NCBI RefSeq assembly: GCF_024700885.2
Contig: NZ_CP117016.1
Length of the DNA: 64,000 bases
Reading direction: 5' to 3' (one strand)
DNA from: Escherichia coli
GTDB taxonomy: Bacteria; Pseudomonadota; Gammaproteobacteria; Enterobacterales; Enterobacteriaceae
Shown here: positions 50,401-56,400 of the stretch, one piece after another
Numbering within the stretch: position 1 is the first letter of the stretch
Layout of the letters: every line of letters starts with the position of its first letter
Program-made: the position numbers

Positions 50401-53400
50401 GATGCCGGGCGCAGCGCCCTGACCCGCGACGAAGCCGCGCTGATATCTGCCACACTGCGTGAGGCCACCCGCAAGAACGGTAAGCGTCTCTATTCCATCG
50501 CAGATGCAGTGGAAACCCTGCGGGCTAACGGCTTTATCACCGCAGGCAGAACAGATGAAACCACCAGTGAGTTTTTCCCGTTGTCTGAAGATGCCATCAG
50601 CCGTGCTCTGCGTAACTATGGCCTGCACCCGGAACAACTGGATGCCCCTGCACCACATACCGAAGTGGCCAGTCTGCATCCCAATCATGTCTGGCAGATT
50701 GACGCCTCACTCTGCACGCTTTACTACCTGAGCAATGGACATAAAGGGCTGCAGGTGATGGACAGCGCGAAGTTCTACAAGAACAAGCCCGCTAACCTTG
50801 CCCGTATCGCCAGTGACCGCGTGTGGAGTTACGAGATTACCGACCATGCCAGCGGCTGGATTTACGTTGAGTATGTGACGGGCGCGGAATCAGGTGAGAA
50901 CCTGTGTTCTGTGCTTATCAACGCCATGCAGGAGCGTGGCGGCGCAGACGTGCTGCACGGCGTGCCGAAAATACTCTATCTCGACCCCGGCTCGGCAAAC
51001 ACCGCGGGTATGACGAAAAACATGTGCCGCTCACTGGGCATCGACCTGATAGCGCACAAGCCGCATAACGCCCGCGCCACCGGACAGGTGGAAAAGGCGC
51101 GTGACATTATCGAACGCAAGCTGGAGCCGGGTCTGAAGTTCCGGCCGGTTCACAGTCTGGAAGAACTCAACGCGCTGGCCGCGAAATGGCGCAGCCACTT
51201 TAACGCCACGGCTGTTCACAGCCGCCACGGTAAAACCCGCACGGATATCTGGCTGAAGATTACTGCTGAGCAGCTGAAAAAAGCGCCTTCCGTTGAGGTA
51301 TGTCGTGAACTGGCTGTGGCGGCACCAGAACTCCGCAAAGTCACGCCAAAACTTCGTGTCTCGTTCCGGGGCACTGAATTTGACGTATCAACGGTACCGG
51401 GCGTACTGGTTGGTGAAAAACTGATGATTACCCGTAACCCATGGCGCAGCGATGTGGCACAGGTGGTTCTGACCGGTGAGGACGGCCACGAGACGTTCTT
51501 CCTGGTCGAAGAGGTCAGAAAGAACGAGTTTGGCTTTGCTGAAGGCGCGGCGGTATTTGGCGAAAGTTACAAAGCCCTGCCGGAAACCCCGGCACAGATG
51601 GCGGCAAAAGAAACCGAAGCGCTGGTTACCGGTACAGACAACGCCGCAGATGCAGCCGCCGCACGCAAGGCGAAGGCGCTGCCGTTCGGCGGGCGGCTTG
51701 ACCCGTATAAACATATCGACGACACCACACTTCCGGCCTATATGCCGAAGCGTGGTCAGGCCTCTGACGTACGCGGGCCGCGCACTGAACAACGTCCCAT
51801 GACTCATGTGGAGGCCGCGAAAGCCCTGCGCGATAAGTTCAGCGCCGACGGCCTTACCTGGACGCCGGAACATTACCGCCAGTTAACGGCACAGTACCCG
51901 GACGGCGTACCGGAAGCCGCACTGGATGAAGTCATGGCCACGCTGACCACACCGGCCCGCAGCAGTGTTATCAGCATTGTTAACGGCAACTGAGGAGGGA
52001 AACATGCTGGTACTGAAGCAGCAACTGAAAGAGGCCCGTATTCCACAGGCGGTGGTGGCGAGAGCTGTCGATGTTTCTGAGGCCACGCTGGCCCAGATTG
52101 TGAATCATAACGCGTGGCCCCGCACCAGCCCCGGAGAAGTGCGCCGGCGTCTTGCGTCCTGGCTGGAAAGTCAGGGGATTGATACAACGAAGAGTTTTGA
52201 TGCTGTACAGGGCGCGGCCACGCCCCGTACAGCGGGTACCACAGATAAAACGAGCCTCAGTGAGGAAGAGAATATGTTACTCAAAAAACAGGTGTTATTT
52301 CCAGCAACCAAAAAAGCGTTTGGTCTTTTCCGTGACCCGTTCGCCGACGAAGCCATGCAGGGTTCTGATGATGTGTTCACCACCCCGGATATTCGCTACG
52401 TGCGTGAGGCGTTGTACCAGACAGCCCGTCATGGTGGGTTTATGGCCGTCATCGGTGAGTCCGGTGCGGGTAAATCCACGCTGCGCCGCGACCTGACTGA
52501 ACGTATCAACCGCGAGAATGCGCCGGTAATTGTTATCGAGCCATACATCATCGCTATGGAAGACAACGATGTGAAAGGGAAAACCCTGAAGGCAGCAGCG
52601 ATTGCCGAAGCCATTATCAGTACCATCGCACCACTGGAAAGCATCAGACGCAGTCAGGACGCCCGCTTTCGCCAGTTGCATCGCGTCCTGAAAGACAGCA
52701 GCCAGGCGGGGTTCAGCCACGTTCTGGTGATTGAGGAGGCCCACAGTCTGCCCATTCCGACACTGAAACACCTCAAACGCTTTTTTGAGCTGGAGTCCGG
52801 TTTCAAAAAACTGCTGTCCATCGTGCTGATTGGCCAGCCGGAACTGGCGACAAAACTGTCTGAACGCAATATGGAAGTCCGTGAAGTCGTTCAGCGCTGT
52901 GAGGTGGTCGAACTTCTGCCTCTGGACAATAACCTTGAAGAGTTTCTGACGTTCAAACTGCAACGGGCCGGTAAACAACTGACGGACATTATGGACGCCA
53001 GCGCAGTGGATGCCATACGTGCCCGCCTGAGCAATCCGGGAAGTCATCGTAAAAATATGGTCAGCCTGCTGTATCCGCTGGCCGTCAGTAACCTGGTAAT
53101 AGCCGCCATGAATCTGGCCGCTGAAATCGGGGTTCCACAGGTCAACGCTGACGTTGTCAAAGGGGTTTAATAATGAAATCCACCACAGGTATCAACCAGC
53201 AAATCAGCAAAGTGCAGTCAGCCATTATGGCGCTTAAGGCGACGAACACGGATGTACAAAGCATCACCATCAGGGGTAACAAACCTGTCATCCGCGTTTC
53301 CCGGAGTGCGCATTGCATGCGCATGCTTGAGCAGGGAAAGGCCTGTTATCTGTATACCGGTCATGACCACAGGGGACATTTCCGTCAGGGCGTTTTCGAA

Positions 53401-56400
53401 CTGCACGGCTGTCGCGTCGTGTGGCCGGAATCTTTGTGGTAATCAGCACAACAGGAGGAGTCATAAAATATGGCAAAAAGTACAAAAGGGGCAAAACGTA
53501 TCAAAGCCGCAGCAGCACTCTGGGTGCCGGGGACACGCGAAGAGGTCATTGAGGGAATCAGACTGCTTGGTGACGCGCAACGTGAACTGGTCAGGGCTGA
53601 AACAGAAATGAATGACACCATTGGCGACATCACTGCACGTTATGCCCCGCTCACCGAGAGCCTGAAAAAACGCATGGCCGAACTGCAGTCCGGTATCCAG
53701 ACATGGTGTGAGGCGCACCGTGATGAACTGACCGGCAACGGGAAGGTGAAGTTCGCTAACCTCACCACCGGCGAGGTGCAGTGGCGAAACCGTCCGCCGT
53801 CAGTCAGCATTCGCGGGGCGGATAATGTCATTGAACTGCTGAGACGTCTGGGGCTTGAGCGCTTTATTCGTGTAAAAGAGGAAATAAATAAAGACGCTAT
53901 CCTGAATGAAAAAGAGGCCGTGAAAAATATTCCCGGTATTTCCATTAAAAGCGACATTGAGGATTTTTCAATAATTCCTTTTGAGCAGGATGTGCAGTAA
54001 ACACACCACGTTAATTATTTAATAAAAACATTTTCTTTTTTATTCCGACGTCAGCGCCGCGGGCTTCTGCACGCCGGAAACAGAGGAGAATTAAATCATG
54101 ATATTTAAATGTATTCAGTGCGAGAGGGATATAACAGCCCTGCGTTTTCACAGCGCCATCGCCGTGATGTCCGGTAAATACCACATCCCTGCGGTACGCG
54201 TCACCCTGGTCTGCCCGTACTGCAGCCAGCATTTTTCGGCAGACGTGCCCGTCATGGAATTCTCCCGCCCTGACAGGGAGGACTCGCAATGATTACCCCA
54301 CAGGAAGCACGACAGCGCACCCGAACCCTTGTTGAACACTATGTCAACGAGTGTGAATGCCGCGACCTCACCGATGTGAAGCACGTCCTGACGGCGCTAA
54401 TCAGCATGACCGCTCAAGCCATTGTGGCGACCAACGGAAAGGCGGCTGCCCTGCAGGTACTGGTGAACACACTAACCCACACGGCAGCGCATGAGGTGCC
54501 GTACCGGATGGAAACCACTGCAGAAGGCGGCCTGCACATCACCGTCAGCCGGAAGCACTGAGGGCGCGGCATGACACGGAACACCATACTCACCCGCACC
54601 GCCCTCTACCGTCTGGCCCTGCAGCGTTTCGGGCCGGACGCACAGGCCCTGAAACTGACAGAAGAGGCCGCTGAACTGGCGGCCAGTGCTGCCCGCAATC
54701 TGAACGGACAGGGCAGCGAAAGCGACCTCGCGGCAGAGCTGGCAGACGTGGAAATCATGACAGAGCAATTGCGCCTTCAGGGGATGGACCGGCTGATTGA
54801 CTTCCACAAACAGAAAAAACTGGAACGTCTGGCTGCACGACTGGGCGTGATTTACACGAACGAGTAACCGGGAGGCATTCAATGGCTGACATACTCAGGG
54901 AAATCACCGCATGGATACTGATTCTTACTGGCCTGGCGACATGCCTCAGTGCGGGGGCAGCCCTGGCTGCCCTGCTGATGCACATAACAACACAGTGGTT
55001 ATGGGAAAAGCTTAAAGCAGCATACAGCCTGAAAGAGCTGTCCGACGCTGTCCGGGCATGGAAACGGCAGAAAAATACCGGAGATACAGAACAATGACAG
55101 ACCAGAATAAACACATTGAGAAACTGAAAAAGTTGCTGGCGCTGGCCGCATCCGGCAACCCGCACGAGGCCGCTCTGGCACTGTGCCGAGCCCGTAAACT
55201 GATGGATGTTCACGGCATCACACATTCCGACATTGCTATGAGTGATATTGATGAAACCATCAGTCACTACTGGCCGACAGGCAGTCTCCGTCCACCGCGC
55301 TACATGCTGGGCCTGATGAACATCATCCGCGAGGTATTTGGTGTTAACTCCATCATTCACCCCGGCACGCATCCGTCTGTGGGGTTCTACGGCAACCGGG
55401 AACGTGCGGCACTGGCTGCATACACCTGGGAAGTGCTGGCCCGTCAGCTGAAAAAGGCGCGTCAGCAGTATATCAGTGCACAGAACAAAAGAATAAAAAC
55501 CGCCACCCGCACCAGCCGTGGAGACCAGTTTGCCGAAGGCTGGGTGCTGGCCGTTATCAGTGAAATACAGTCCTTTGCCCTGACCGATGATGAGCGTGAA
55601 CTGATGCAGCAGTGGCTGGAACATAAATACCCGCAGACGCAAACCACCAGGGCGCGTAAACCGGGAAGAAGCCGCAATGGCGACGCCTCGCGCTATGCGG
55701 GGTTTCGTGAAGGGCAGAACGTCAGACTGCACCGCCCGGTCAGTGGGCAGGAACAACAGAAACTGGAGGCCAGATGATTACGCTATCAGGTAAAAGCCGG
55801 AAATTAAAAGCCTGCCGAATATCTGCCAGATACCTTTTTGCCCGCGCCTTTTTTAAGAACGTCAGGCCGGGGATCACAATTGGTGTTATTGCCGGACGCG
55901 AACAGGTTGAAAAATACATGTCAGGTGCATGGTGGAATAACGACCCTGTCATTGCTGCCCGTAATATTCATATCGAATGGGGAGGTATTCAGAATGACTA
56001 CTGAAACCATTGTCTGTTTTCTTTTCTGGTATATGTACGCAGGATCATGCAGCGCAAGACTTCATCGTTCCCTGGGCTATGGCAGGCACTACGACACCGC
56101 GCATTACATCCTGTACATGACCGCCGTCATGTTGTTCTGGCCAGTCACCCTGCCAGCTGCAACCGACATTGTTGCCGACAGACTGAAAAAAAGGAGATGA
56201 TATGCAGAAAAAACGCCTGATACAGCTTATCCATATTGCCCGTAATGAACTGGGTATGGATGAAGACACCTACCGCCAGATGTTACAGGGGCTGACCGGT
56301 AAAGCCTCAACCAAAGGAATGGATACCACACAACTAAACTGCGTGCTGGAATCCATGAAAAAGAAAGGCTTTCGCGTTAAACCAGCCAGAAAAGCCAGCT

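What the first reader, a model, noticed from the sequence alone, without database searches (positions are those of the whole stretch)
53173..56200. Run of small unassigned early genes including a MazG-like protein and zinc-ribbon and membrane peptides
Between B and GemA/Mor lie nine or more short ORFs. Only Gam is confidently assigned. A 98-aa protein has MazG/HisE-like EExxEL and ExxD motifs, and there is a 64-aa zinc-ribbon ORF and two small membrane proteins. This position corresponds to the semi-essential early region of Mu, which encodes host-takeover functions, so it is a reasonable place to look for new anti-defence activities.
Basis: inference. Interest (0 to 1): 0.45.

Follow-up and report, generated by a model that had tools for sequence, protein, structure and literature searches.

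The report
Accessory early genes of a BcepMu-like prophage
The nine small genes between the transposition gene B and gemA/mor of this common E. coli prophage are real, co-transcribed accessory early genes, including a DNA-end protector and a MazG-type nucleotide pyrophosphatase; most have unknown functions and none matches a known system, so they are ordinary but legitimate candidates for host-takeover or counter-defence roles.

Summary
Window 53173-56200 holds nine tightly packed plus-strand genes between B (ExeA-type ATPase) and GemA/Mor. The element is a BcepMu-like transposable prophage: 98.9% identical to Escherichia phage PhiKM and present in 640 of 5426 complete E. coli genomes.

All nine ORFs match existing PHROG families. 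All have ATG starts with Shine-Dalgarno sequences, and dN/dS is below 1 across 80 related loci. Assignments:
- Gam: 61% identical to Mu Gam.
- 98-aa protein: all-alpha MazG/HisE-type NTP pyrophosphohydrolase with invariant EExxE...ExxD.
- 227-aa protein: DUF2786+DUF7168, with a weak KH-like fold.
- 64-aa protein: four-Cys zinc ribbon.
- 71-aa protein: clearly membrane. The 68-aa protein is probably membrane.
- 89-, 90- and 76-aa proteins: no assignment.

Only Gam, GemA and Mor match Mu proteins. Nothing matches PADLOC or NCBIfam. The interval is a mosaic: about 38 gene orders in 73 related loci, with Gam and DUF3164 as alternatives. That fits an accessory, Mu "semi-essential"-like module. An anti-defence role is plausible but untested.

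Side finding: a conserved intergenic hairpin (54030-54083) upstream of the zinc-ribbon gene is shared with phage Mu itself.

Interest is low to moderate.

The parts
48335..48363 (+). Early-promoter-like site (TTGATA-17-AATAAT). It lies between the minus-strand repressor gene (47961-48317) and the first plus-strand early gene (48411-48599).
   Evidence: 10 of 12 consensus matches, but no more sites than in shuffles; position. Its role as Pe is inferred.
52004..53170 (+). B-equivalent transposition ATPase (ExeA family). This is the left boundary of the finding.
   Evidence: RefSeq annotation; 59% identical to BcepMu gp08.
53173..53442 (+). 89-aa basic protein of unknown function (phrog_2041). 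It starts 2 nt after the B stop and is the most widely retained gene of the interval.
   Evidence: 1e-36. Present in 73 of 73 related loci with a complete interval. 57 representatives at 50% identity. No Pfam or PDB match. Weak hhalign match to BcepMu gp07, which sits at the same position (probability 37%).
53470..54000 (+). Mu Gam-type DNA-end-binding host-nuclease inhibitor.
   Evidence: Pfam Phage_Mu_Gam 2.2e-40; phrog_491 6.7e-73; 61% identical to Mu Gam.
54030..54083 (+). Conserved intergenic element: a T-rich tract followed by a GC-rich hairpin (stem 54043-54051 with 54071-54079) and then AAACAG. It lies just upstream of the Shine-Dalgarno sequence and ATG of the zinc-ribbon gene.
   Evidence: A homologous element lies after gam in Mu, D108, SfMu and Yersinia Mu-like phages. 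No Rfam hit.
54098..54292 (+). 64-aa four-cysteine zinc-ribbon protein (phrog_3401).
   Evidence: 1.6e-40. CxxC...CxxC conserved. dN/dS 0.08-0.19. Annotated in RefSeq. The minus-strand ORF annotated instead in PhiKM (54011-54232) has no PHROG match and carries stop codons in 27 of 36 relatives.
54289..54561 (+). 90-aa protein of unknown function (phrog_3691). It evolves faster than its neighbours and is lineage-restricted.
   Evidence: 7.4e-55; dN/dS about 0.4; present in 35 of 73 loci.
54571..54867 (+). 98-aa single-domain MazG/HisE-type (all-alpha) NTP pyrophosphohydrolase.
54882..55097 (+). 71-aa single-pass membrane protein (phrog_3958). It is present only in the closest E. coli variants.
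   Evidence: 1.7e-41. Hydropathy 2.02. Absent from about one third of the otherwise near-identical E. coli variants among the related loci. dN/dS 0.4-0.5.
55094..55777 (+). 227-aa DUF2786 + DUF7168 protein (phrog_421).
55774..56004 (+). 76-aa protein of unknown function (phrog_3681) with a highly conserved core.
   Evidence: Homologues occur only in Enterobacterales prophages.
55994..56200 (+). 68-aa probable two-segment membrane protein (phrog_6436). It occurs as two allele types, about 100% and about 40% identical.
56202..57012 (+). GemA (56202-56651) and Mor (56623-57012). This is the right boundary of the finding.
   Evidence: Pfam GemA 9.9e-41 and Mor 1.5e-43.

Best explanation
The span is the accessory part of the early operon of a BcepMu-like transposable prophage. 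In position it is equivalent to the 'semi-essential' early region of Mu.

Shown here:
- The nine genes are real and conserved under purifying selection.
- They are arranged for co-transcription and translational coupling with the transposition genes A and B.
- They are exchangeable as cassettes among related phages.

Inferred from family knowledge:
- After infection or induction, the early promoter drives one long transcript.
- Gam binds the ends of linear phage DNA and blocks RecBCD.
- The 98-aa MazG-type enzyme, probably a dimer or tetramer, hydrolyses (d)NTPs or a nucleotide alarmone or signal to the monophosphate plus pyrophosphate. This would adjust the nucleotide pool in favour of replicative transposition or against a host response.
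- The basic 89-aa protein, which always directly follows B, is more likely a core helper of transposition or replication, or a regulator, than an exchangeable accessory gene.
- The DUF2786/DUF7168 protein and the zinc-ribbon protein probably bind nucleic acid or host proteins.
- The two small membrane proteins probably act on the envelope (superinfection exclusion or division and lysis timing).

None of the unknown genes can be given a specific biochemical function from the present evidence.
For: - Identity of the element: 98.9% identical to Escherichia phage PhiKM, genus Bcepmuvirus, and 100% to E. coli MLI114.
- Gene reality: PHROG matches for all nine ORFs, ATG plus Shine-Dalgarno and operon-like spacing, and dN/dS below 1.
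- Synteny with Mu and BcepMu: A, B, Gam, GemA and Mor.
- Gam.
- MazG-type enzyme. NTP pyrophosphatases recur in this interval: BcepMu gp06 is annotated 'pyrophosphatase', and a PF04447 dATP/dGTP pyrophosphohydrolase occurs in relatives.
- Cassette mosaicism: about 38 gene orders in 73 loci, and every locus carries either Gam or DUF3164, never both.
- Dispensability: two relatives have only 309 or 756 nt between B and GemA.
- The 89-aa gene is present in 73 of 73 intervals.
- Literature: Mu's semi-essential genes lie on the Pe transcript and are 'largely unknown' (PMC3820752).
Against: - There are no transcript data. The promoter call is a consensus match, and such matches are no more frequent here than in shuffled sequence.
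- The MazG assignment rests on a PHROG profile and on fold and motif evidence. Pfam MazG and PRA-PH stay below threshold (best 2.3e-3 in any member). The Foldseek E-values are weak (0.05), and the model shows one long C-terminal helix instead of two.
- The membrane call for the 68-aa protein is borderline.
- The functions proposed for six of the nine genes are inference only.
Confidence: 0.6

Rival explanations
1. The interval is primarily an anti-defence island. Several of the small proteins, including the MazG-like enzyme, would each neutralise a specific bacterial immune system, and cassette turnover would reflect an arms race.
For: - Gene content is mosaic and varies strongly at fixed slots.
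- The 90-aa and 71-aa genes evolve faster, with dN/dS about 0.4.
- Gam is a RecBCD antagonist.
- One alternative cassette in relatives matches a 'host nuclease inhibitor' PHROG.
- A phage MazG-like enzyme, Atd1, was reported to deplete (p)ppGpp and to protect against TIR-STING toxicity (bioRxiv 10.1101/2022.06.09.495361).
- Gam and GemA of Mu-like phages interact with the Gabija system (bioRxiv 10.1101/2025.08.30.673261).
Against: - No ORF matches any characterised anti-defence protein as far as these tools can tell, and no paper mentions these accessions.
- The best-conserved genes (the 89-aa gene, MazG and the 227-aa gene) are retained across lineages with purifying selection, dN/dS 0.1-0.16. 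That looks more like housekeeping for the phage than an arms race.
- The corresponding BcepMu interval holds HU-like and SSB-like DNA-transaction proteins.
- This MazG type is not close to other phage MazG proteins. Among 50,697 phage records, only 4 BcepMu-like phages carry it.
Confidence: 0.25
2. Most of these genes are helpers of transposition, replication or transcription. They would act on phage DNA or RNA, like Mu arm/lig/gem functions or BcepMu HU and SSB-like proteins, and not on host defences.
For: - The 89-aa gene is always coupled to B, with a 2-nt gap, in 73 of 73 loci.
- A possible remote counterpart, BcepMu gp07, sits at the same position.
- The 227-aa protein has a KH-like alpha/beta core and is basic, with 34 K+R against 23 D+E.
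- The zinc ribbon sits next to a conserved RNA or DNA hairpin.
- BcepMu carries HU and an SSB-like protein in the same interval.
Against: - Two relatives lack nearly the whole interval, so none of these genes is strictly needed by the family. It was not checked whether those two phages are functional.
- The fold similarities are weak.
- The membrane peptides do not fit this role.
Confidence: 0.3
3. Some of the short ORFs are chance ORFs or annotation artefacts.
For: - Lengths are only 64-98 aa.
- The deposited PhiKM record annotates a minus-strand ORF in place of the 64-aa gene.
- Many overlapping alternative-frame ORFs exist in this region.
Against: - All nine match PHROG families.
- dN/dS is below 1 in the annotated frame.
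- All nine have Shine-Dalgarno sequences.
- The competing minus-strand ORF has no family and is broken by stop codons in 27 of 36 relatives.
Confidence: 0.03

Closest known systems
Semi-essential (SE) early region of phage Mu (kil ... gam ... gemA, mor)
   Same: - It has the same position in the early operon, downstream of B and upstream of gemA-mor.
- It contains an orthologous Gam (61% identity) and is followed by GemA and Mor.
- It shares the hairpin element downstream of gam.
- Its genes are mostly small and of unknown function, and lie on the Pe transcript (PMC3820752).
   Different: - None of the other eight proteins matches Mu Kil or gp6-gp15 by BLAST or phmmer.
- The host phage has a different transposase (rve/Tn552-type) and an ExeA-type B.
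- Its early and late arms diverge, whereas in Mu they are collinear.
BcepMu gp03-gp07 interval (Burkholderia phage BcepMu, type species of Bcepmuvirus)
   Same: - It belongs to the same genus-level backbone: A 68%, B 59%, GemA 44% and Mor 54% identical.
- It is the same interval between B and GemA.
- It also contains a pyrophosphatase (gp06) and a small protein directly after B (gp07).
   Different: - There is no BLAST-level similarity for any gene of the interval.
- BcepMu has DUF3164, HU and an SSB-like protein in place of Gam, the zinc ribbon, DUF2786/DUF7168 and the membrane peptides.
- gp06 is not detectably related to the 98-aa enzyme (hhalign probability 0.2%).
- gp07 resembles the 89-aa family only weakly (probability 37%).
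Single-domain all-alpha NTP pyrophosphohydrolases: integron iMazG (2q5z), DCTPP1 (7mu5), Sulfolobus MazG (1vmg), HisE; phage example Atd1
   Same: - The domain size is about 90-100 residues and it is helical.
- It has the EExxE...ExxD acidic motif.
- These are the best fold matches, at 20-26% identity.
- A phage member, Atd1, has a reported counter-defence role.
   Different: - The protein falls below the Pfam MazG and PRA-PH thresholds and has no PDB sequence hit.
- Its substrate is unknown.
- Among sequenced phages this type occurs only in four enterobacterial BcepMu-like phages.
Escherichia phage PhiKM (PQ738613) and the same prophage in 640 complete E. coli genomes
   Same: It is 98.9-100% identical in DNA over the whole interval, with the same gene set.
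   Different: - PhiKM annotates a minus-strand ORF instead of the zinc-ribbon gene.
- Some E. coli variants lack the 71-aa gene and carry the other allele of the 68-aa gene.
Mu Com (62-aa zinc-finger translational activator that binds an mRNA hairpin)
   Same: - The 64-aa protein is of similar size.
- It has two CxxC knuckles.
- It lies next to a conserved hairpin close to a ribosome-binding site.
   Different: - Sequence similarity is limited to the CxxC knuckles, at about 7 bits, and there is no Pfam Com hit.
- The hairpin lies upstream of the zinc-ribbon gene itself, not upstream of a downstream target gene.
- The same hairpin precedes unrelated genes in other phages.
- This is a lead only.

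Membership tests
Mu Gam family (PF07352) | Significant profile match over the full length, and similarity to Mu Gam | tested here: met
   Pfam 2.2e-40; phrog_491 6.7e-73; 61% identity over 169 aa to Mu gp10.
Mu Gam family (PF07352) | Binding of double-stranded DNA ends and protection from RecBCD | not testable with these tools
   Biochemical property; inferred from homology only.
All-alpha NTP pyrophosphohydrolase (MazG/HisE) superfamily | Acidic metal-binding motif E-E-x-x-E ... E-x-x-D on consecutive helices | tested here: met
   E31, E32, E35, E56 and D59 are present. E31, E32, E56, D59, E61 and E65 are invariant in 21 homologues.
All-alpha NTP pyrophosphohydrolase (MazG/HisE) superfamily | Helical-bundle fold of about 90-100 residues resembling solved MazG/HisE domains | tested here: inconclusive
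All-alpha NTP pyrophosphohydrolase (MazG/HisE) superfamily | Match to curated family profiles (Pfam MazG PF03819 or PRA-PH PF01503) above threshold | tested here: not met
   PRA-PH i-Evalue is 0.063 for the window protein. It is at most 0.1 in 15 of 21 homologues, with a best of 2.3e-3. MazG is at most 0.1 in 3 of 21. The PHROG family annotated 'nucleoside triphosphate pyrophosphohydrolase' does match, at 2.8e-34.
All-alpha NTP pyrophosphohydrolase (MazG/HisE) superfamily | Mg2+-dependent hydrolysis of NTP to NMP plus PPi | not testable with these tools
   Enzyme assay needed.
Zinc ribbon | Two CxxC knuckles, conserved across homologues | tested here: met
   C5, C8, C39 and C42 are conserved in 34 distinct homologues. 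One source names the protein RPC12/RpoP-like. No structure was predicted.
Mu Com family | Profile or sequence similarity to Com beyond the cysteine knuckles | tested here: not met
   A family HMM scored against Mu Com gives about 7 bits, and only at the CxxC knuckles. No Pfam Com hit.
DUF2786 / DUF7168 proteins | Pfam matches to both domains in the usual order | tested here: met
   PF10979 5.6e-10 and PF23771 1.6e-25. All full-length homologues carry both domains.
KH domain (considered for the DUF7168 core) | KH fold with a GxxG loop | tested here: inconclusive
Mu-type semi-essential early region | Located between B and gemA-mor on the early strand and dispensable for the phage | tested here: met
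   Gene order is shown. Relatives with only 309 or 756 nt between B and GemA, and extensive presence/absence variation, support dispensability. Dispensability is inferred from comparative data only.
Mu-type semi-essential early region | Homologous gene content (kil, gp6-gp15) | tested here: not met
   Only Gam matches. No other ORF matches any Mu early protein.
Known anti-defence proteins | Match to a catalogued anti-defence family | not testable with these tools
   No anti-defence profile library was available. PADLOC, which holds defence systems, gave no hit, and neither did NCBIfam. A literature search for the accessions found nothing.

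The most novel reading that the evidence does not exclude
At least one of the conserved proteins of unknown function is a new counter-defence factor.

The most concrete candidate is the MazG-type enzyme. It would destroy a nucleotide-derived immune signal, a toxic nucleotide analogue or the (p)ppGpp alarmone early in infection.

Separately, the hairpin shared by Mu and BcepMu-like phages upstream of the zinc-ribbon gene could be an undescribed cis-acting RNA element. It might act in processing, stabilisation or translational control of transposable-phage early transcripts.
Probability: 0.25. Interest if true: 0.55.

Novelty: new member of a known kind. Interest (0 to 1): 0.3.

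Why it matters
This prophage sits in about 12% of complete E. coli genomes, and an inducible relative (PhiKM) has been isolated. Its early accessory genes are therefore abundant, experimentally tractable proteins with no known function.

The comparative map made here shows which genes are near-universal in the family: the 89-aa gene after B, the MazG-type enzyme and DUF2786/DUF7168. It also shows which are exchangeable: Gam or DUF3164, the 71-aa and 68-aa membrane peptides, and the 90-aa protein. That prioritises candidates for anti-defence or host-takeover screens.

The value is as a candidate list. Nothing here overturns current understanding.

Tried and rejected
- NCBIfam and PADLOC scans of all ORFs found no hits.
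- PDB sequence searches with single proteins and with family profiles for the 98-aa, 227-aa and 89-aa proteins found nothing significant.
- Pfam on 30 members of the 89-aa family found nothing.
- BLAST and phmmer of all ORFs against the Mu early proteins and BcepMu gp03-gp07 matched only Gam, GemA and Mor.
- hhalign of the MazG family against BcepMu gp06 showed no relationship.
- hhalign of the 89-aa family against BcepMu gp07 was suggestive only.
- In the representative search, the 89-aa query hit two giant repeat proteins (4728 aa with 41 stretches; 1901 aa). On inspection these are repetitive adhesin-like proteins with low-identity repeated matches. I rejected them as homologues.
- The idea that the 64-aa zinc ribbon is a Com homologue was rejected as a membership claim.
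- The hairpin as an intrinsic terminator was rejected, because no U run follows it on either strand.
- The hairpin as a known RNA family was rejected, because there is no Rfam match at E at most 1.
- Literature searches for DUF2786, DUF7168, DUF3164 and the RefSeq accessions gave no functional information.
- The minus-strand ORF annotated in PhiKM was rejected as a gene.

Full report
**What the window is.** The span lies in a prophage of E. coli strain MLI114; the match to the chromosome is 100%. The prophage is 98.9% identical over the finding to Escherichia phage PhiKM, which is classified in Bcepmuvirus. The same 4.1 kb occurs in 640 of 5426 complete E. coli genomes, 619 of them with at least 80% coverage.

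Early genes run on the plus strand from about 48411 to 57012. Structural genes run on the minus strand from about 45469 down to 21684. This is the divergent layout of BcepMu, not the collinear layout of Mu. The right end lies just after Mor, and the prophage interrupts cbtA of the CP4-44 element.

**Checking the observation.** Nine plus-strand ORFs fill 53173-56200 between B (ExeA-family ATPase, 52004-53170) and GemA/Mor.
- They are separated by +2, +27, +97, -4, +9, +14, -4, -4, -11 and +1 nt.
- All start with ATG behind a Shine-Dalgarno sequence.
- Each matches a PHROG family at E between 1e-34 and 1e-77.
- RefSeq calls the same nine CDS.
- Each exact protein is on record from hundreds to more than 1000 contigs.

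I fetched 80 related loci using the B protein. Pairwise Nei-Gojobori estimates against them give:
- dN/dS 0.03-0.2 for B, the 89-aa gene, Gam, the 64-aa gene, the 98-aa gene, the 227-aa gene, GemA and Mor.
- About 0.4 for the 90-aa and 71-aa genes.
- 0.16 for diverged alleles of the 76-aa gene.

The ORFs are therefore genes. PhiKM annotates a minus-strand ORF (54011-54232) in place of the 64-aa gene. That ORF has no PHROG match and is interrupted by stop codons in 27 of 36 distinct relatives, so that annotation is wrong.

**What each gene is.**
- *Gam.* It is secure: Pfam 2.2e-40, phrog_491 6.7e-73, and 61% identity to Mu Gam.
- *64-aa protein.* It has four conserved cysteines in two CxxC knuckles.
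- *71-aa protein.* It has an unambiguous transmembrane segment.
- *68-aa protein.* It has two aromatic-rich hydrophobic stretches just below the usual threshold.
- *89-, 90- and 76-aa proteins.* They have no Pfam, NCBIfam, PADLOC or PDB relatives.

**Comparison with Mu and BcepMu.** Only Gam, GemA (36%) and Mor (30%) match Mu early proteins. No ORF matches Kil or gp6-gp15. BcepMu shares A, B, gp10, GemA and Mor with this prophage, but none of the genes in between at BLAST level. Its interval holds gp07, a pyrophosphatase (gp06), DUF3164, HU and an SSB-like protein.

The other criterion, 'lack of conservation', is not met either.

**Comparative anatomy of the interval.** Across the 73 related loci with a complete B-to-GemA interval:
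- The 89-aa gene is present in all 73, always directly after B.
- The zinc ribbon is in 63, the MazG-type gene in 60, the 68-aa family in 58 and the 227-aa gene in 57.
- The 76-aa gene is in 37, the 90-aa gene in 35 and the 71-aa gene in about 20.
- Every locus carries either Gam (33 loci) or a DUF3164 protein (39 loci; Pfam 1.7e-78), never both.
- About 38 different gene orders occur.
- Alternative cassettes include a PF04447 dATP/dGTP pyrophosphohydrolase (7.5e-44), a DUF2528 protein and one protein matching a 'host nuclease inhibitor' PHROG.
- Two relatives have only 309 and 756 nt between B and GemA.

The interval is thus an exchangeable accessory module. Three genes (the 89-aa gene, MazG and DUF2786/DUF7168) are retained far more widely than the rest.

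**Most likely mechanism.** Shown here: the genes are real, sit in one operon-like array with A and B, and are modular. Inferred: they are transcribed from the early promoter. A consensus-like site lies at 48335-48363, but such sites are not enriched over shuffles.

From family knowledge, Gam protects linear DNA ends from RecBCD, and the MazG-type enzyme converts some (d)NTP or nucleotide alarmone or signal to the monophosphate plus pyrophosphate.

A phage MazG-like enzyme, Atd1, has been reported to deplete (p)ppGpp and to protect cells from TIR-STING toxicity (bioRxiv 10.1101/2022.06.09.495361). That is a precedent, not evidence for this protein.

Gam and GemA of a Mu-like Pseudomonas phage license targeting by Gabija (bioRxiv 10.1101/2025.08.30.673261). 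This might bear on the Gam/DUF3164 alternation, but I did not test it.

The roles of the other six genes are open. I rank the readings 'accessory early module with mixed functions' (0.6), 'helpers of DNA or RNA transactions' (0.3) and 'dedicated anti-defence island' (0.25). They overlap and are not mutually exclusive.

**A side finding inside the span.** The only sizeable gap (54001-54097) contains a T-rich tract and a GC-rich hairpin (stem 54043-54051 with 54071-54079), followed by AAACAG and the ribosome-binding site of the zinc-ribbon gene.
- The element is nearly invariant in 44 related loci. In the same loci the zinc-ribbon protein drops to 55% identity and the upstream gene is either Gam or DUF3164.
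- RNAalifold predicts 15 pairs, with one compensatory pair and several G-U changes compatible with a plus-strand RNA.
- The window sequence folds at -22.3 kcal/mol, z -2.95.
- A clearly homologous element lies just after gam in Mu itself, and in D108, SfMu, Yersinia Mu-like phages and Mu-like inserts in Stx phages.
- Across both genera the GGCG/CGCC core is invariant and two positions show C-G to U-A exchanges. 85.7% of cells are paired, against at most 43% when the partner columns are slid. These exchanges probably represent few evolutionary events, so the support is modest.
- The gene that follows the hairpin differs between phages: the zinc ribbon here, a MazG-like gene in Klebsiella phage Kp4866-3, and unrelated gp11 families in Mu and SfMu.
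- It is not a terminator on either strand, it has no Rfam match, and it occurs only once in the window.

Its function is unknown. It could be an mRNA processing or stabilising element, a translational control element, or a conserved linker at which modules recombine.

**Novelty and verdict.** The sequence, the phage type and the kind of region are all known. The proteins are already catalogued as hypothetical or as unknown-function PHROGs.

The most useful output here is the prioritisation of candidates and the corrected annotation. Interest is 0.3. The most novel reading not excluded is that one of these proteins, most concretely the MazG-type enzyme, is a new counter-defence factor, or that the hairpin is a new cis-acting RNA element. 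I put that at about 0.25.

Noticed in passing
window 54030-54083 (also NC_000929 6338-6425 = L087; L089-L093): A conserved T-rich tract plus GC-rich hairpin lies upstream of the zinc-ribbon gene. It is more conserved than the flanking genes and is shared between enterobacterial BcepMu-like phages and Mu, D108, SfMu and Yersinia Mu-like phages. Different genes follow it in different phages. It has no Rfam match and is not a terminator.
   Followed up: partly
window 54011-54232 (minus strand); L001 6912-7133: The PhiKM GenBank record annotates a minus-strand hypothetical protein here in place of the plus-strand 64-aa zinc-ribbon gene. The minus-strand ORF has no PHROG match and carries stop codons in 27 of 36 relatives.
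   Followed up: yes
window about 57100-57363: The right end of the prophage abuts a 5'-truncated cbtA, the toxin gene of the CP4-44 cryptic prophage. It is followed by yeeW, a EutP-like remnant, yeeX/tmaR and yeeA. The transposable prophage therefore inserted into a toxin-antitoxin toxin gene of another prophage remnant.
   Followed up: no
related loci L006, L039-L066, L071-L083 versus L007-L038 (slot after the 89-aa gene): Every locus has either Gam or a DUF3164 protein (Pfam 1.7e-78) at this slot, never both. DUF3164 is also what BcepMu carries. A recent preprint shows that Mu-type Gam and GemA license Gabija targeting, which may be relevant.
   Followed up: partly
L054 8616-9107, L060 (and relatives): Some relatives carry a second nucleotide pyrophosphatase in the same interval: a PF04447 dATP/dGTP pyrophosphohydrolase (7.5e-44). 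In L054 it sits next to the MazG-type gene. In Klebsiella phage Kp4866-3 a 162-aa MazG-like protein (45% identical) directly follows the hairpin.
   Followed up: partly
window 55994-56200 and 54882-55097; L004, L005, L015, L025: The 68-aa membrane protein exists as two allele types, about 100% and about 40% identical, in otherwise 96-99% identical prophages. The 71-aa membrane protein is simply absent from about a third of close E. coli variants.
   Followed up: partly
L067 (7152-7461) and L086 (7167-7923): Two related viral contigs have only 309 and 756 nt between B and GemA, so almost the whole accessory interval is missing. I did not check whether these are complete, functional phages.
   Followed up: no
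window 55720-55777; L045 8615-9094, L006 5184-5570: Unrelated proteins that occupy the slot of the 227-aa gene in other phages end with a similar C-terminal tail (P-V-x-x-Q-E-Q-x-K-L-G/E). This suggests that the recombination junction between cassettes lies inside the 3' end of the gene.
   Followed up: no
P0111 (4728 aa) and P0133 (1901 aa): The representative search with the 89-aa protein returned a giant repeat protein with 41 matching stretches as its top hit (E 3.7e-65). The sequence is an adhesin-like tandem repeat, and the score is a sum of weak, low-identity repeat matches. It is not evidence of homology.
   Followed up: partly
window 46990-47844 (plus strand): A DNA adenine methylase gene lies just upstream of the repressor, outside the early operon (PhiKM annotation). 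It is a possible anti-restriction function of the same prophage.
   Followed up: no
P0012, P0030, P0031; L038 and L050 ('MazG+ext'): Some homologues of the 98-aa enzyme carry a conserved C-terminal extension of about 70 residues (...LPxRELLEDWCGAVP...) of unknown function.
   Followed up: no
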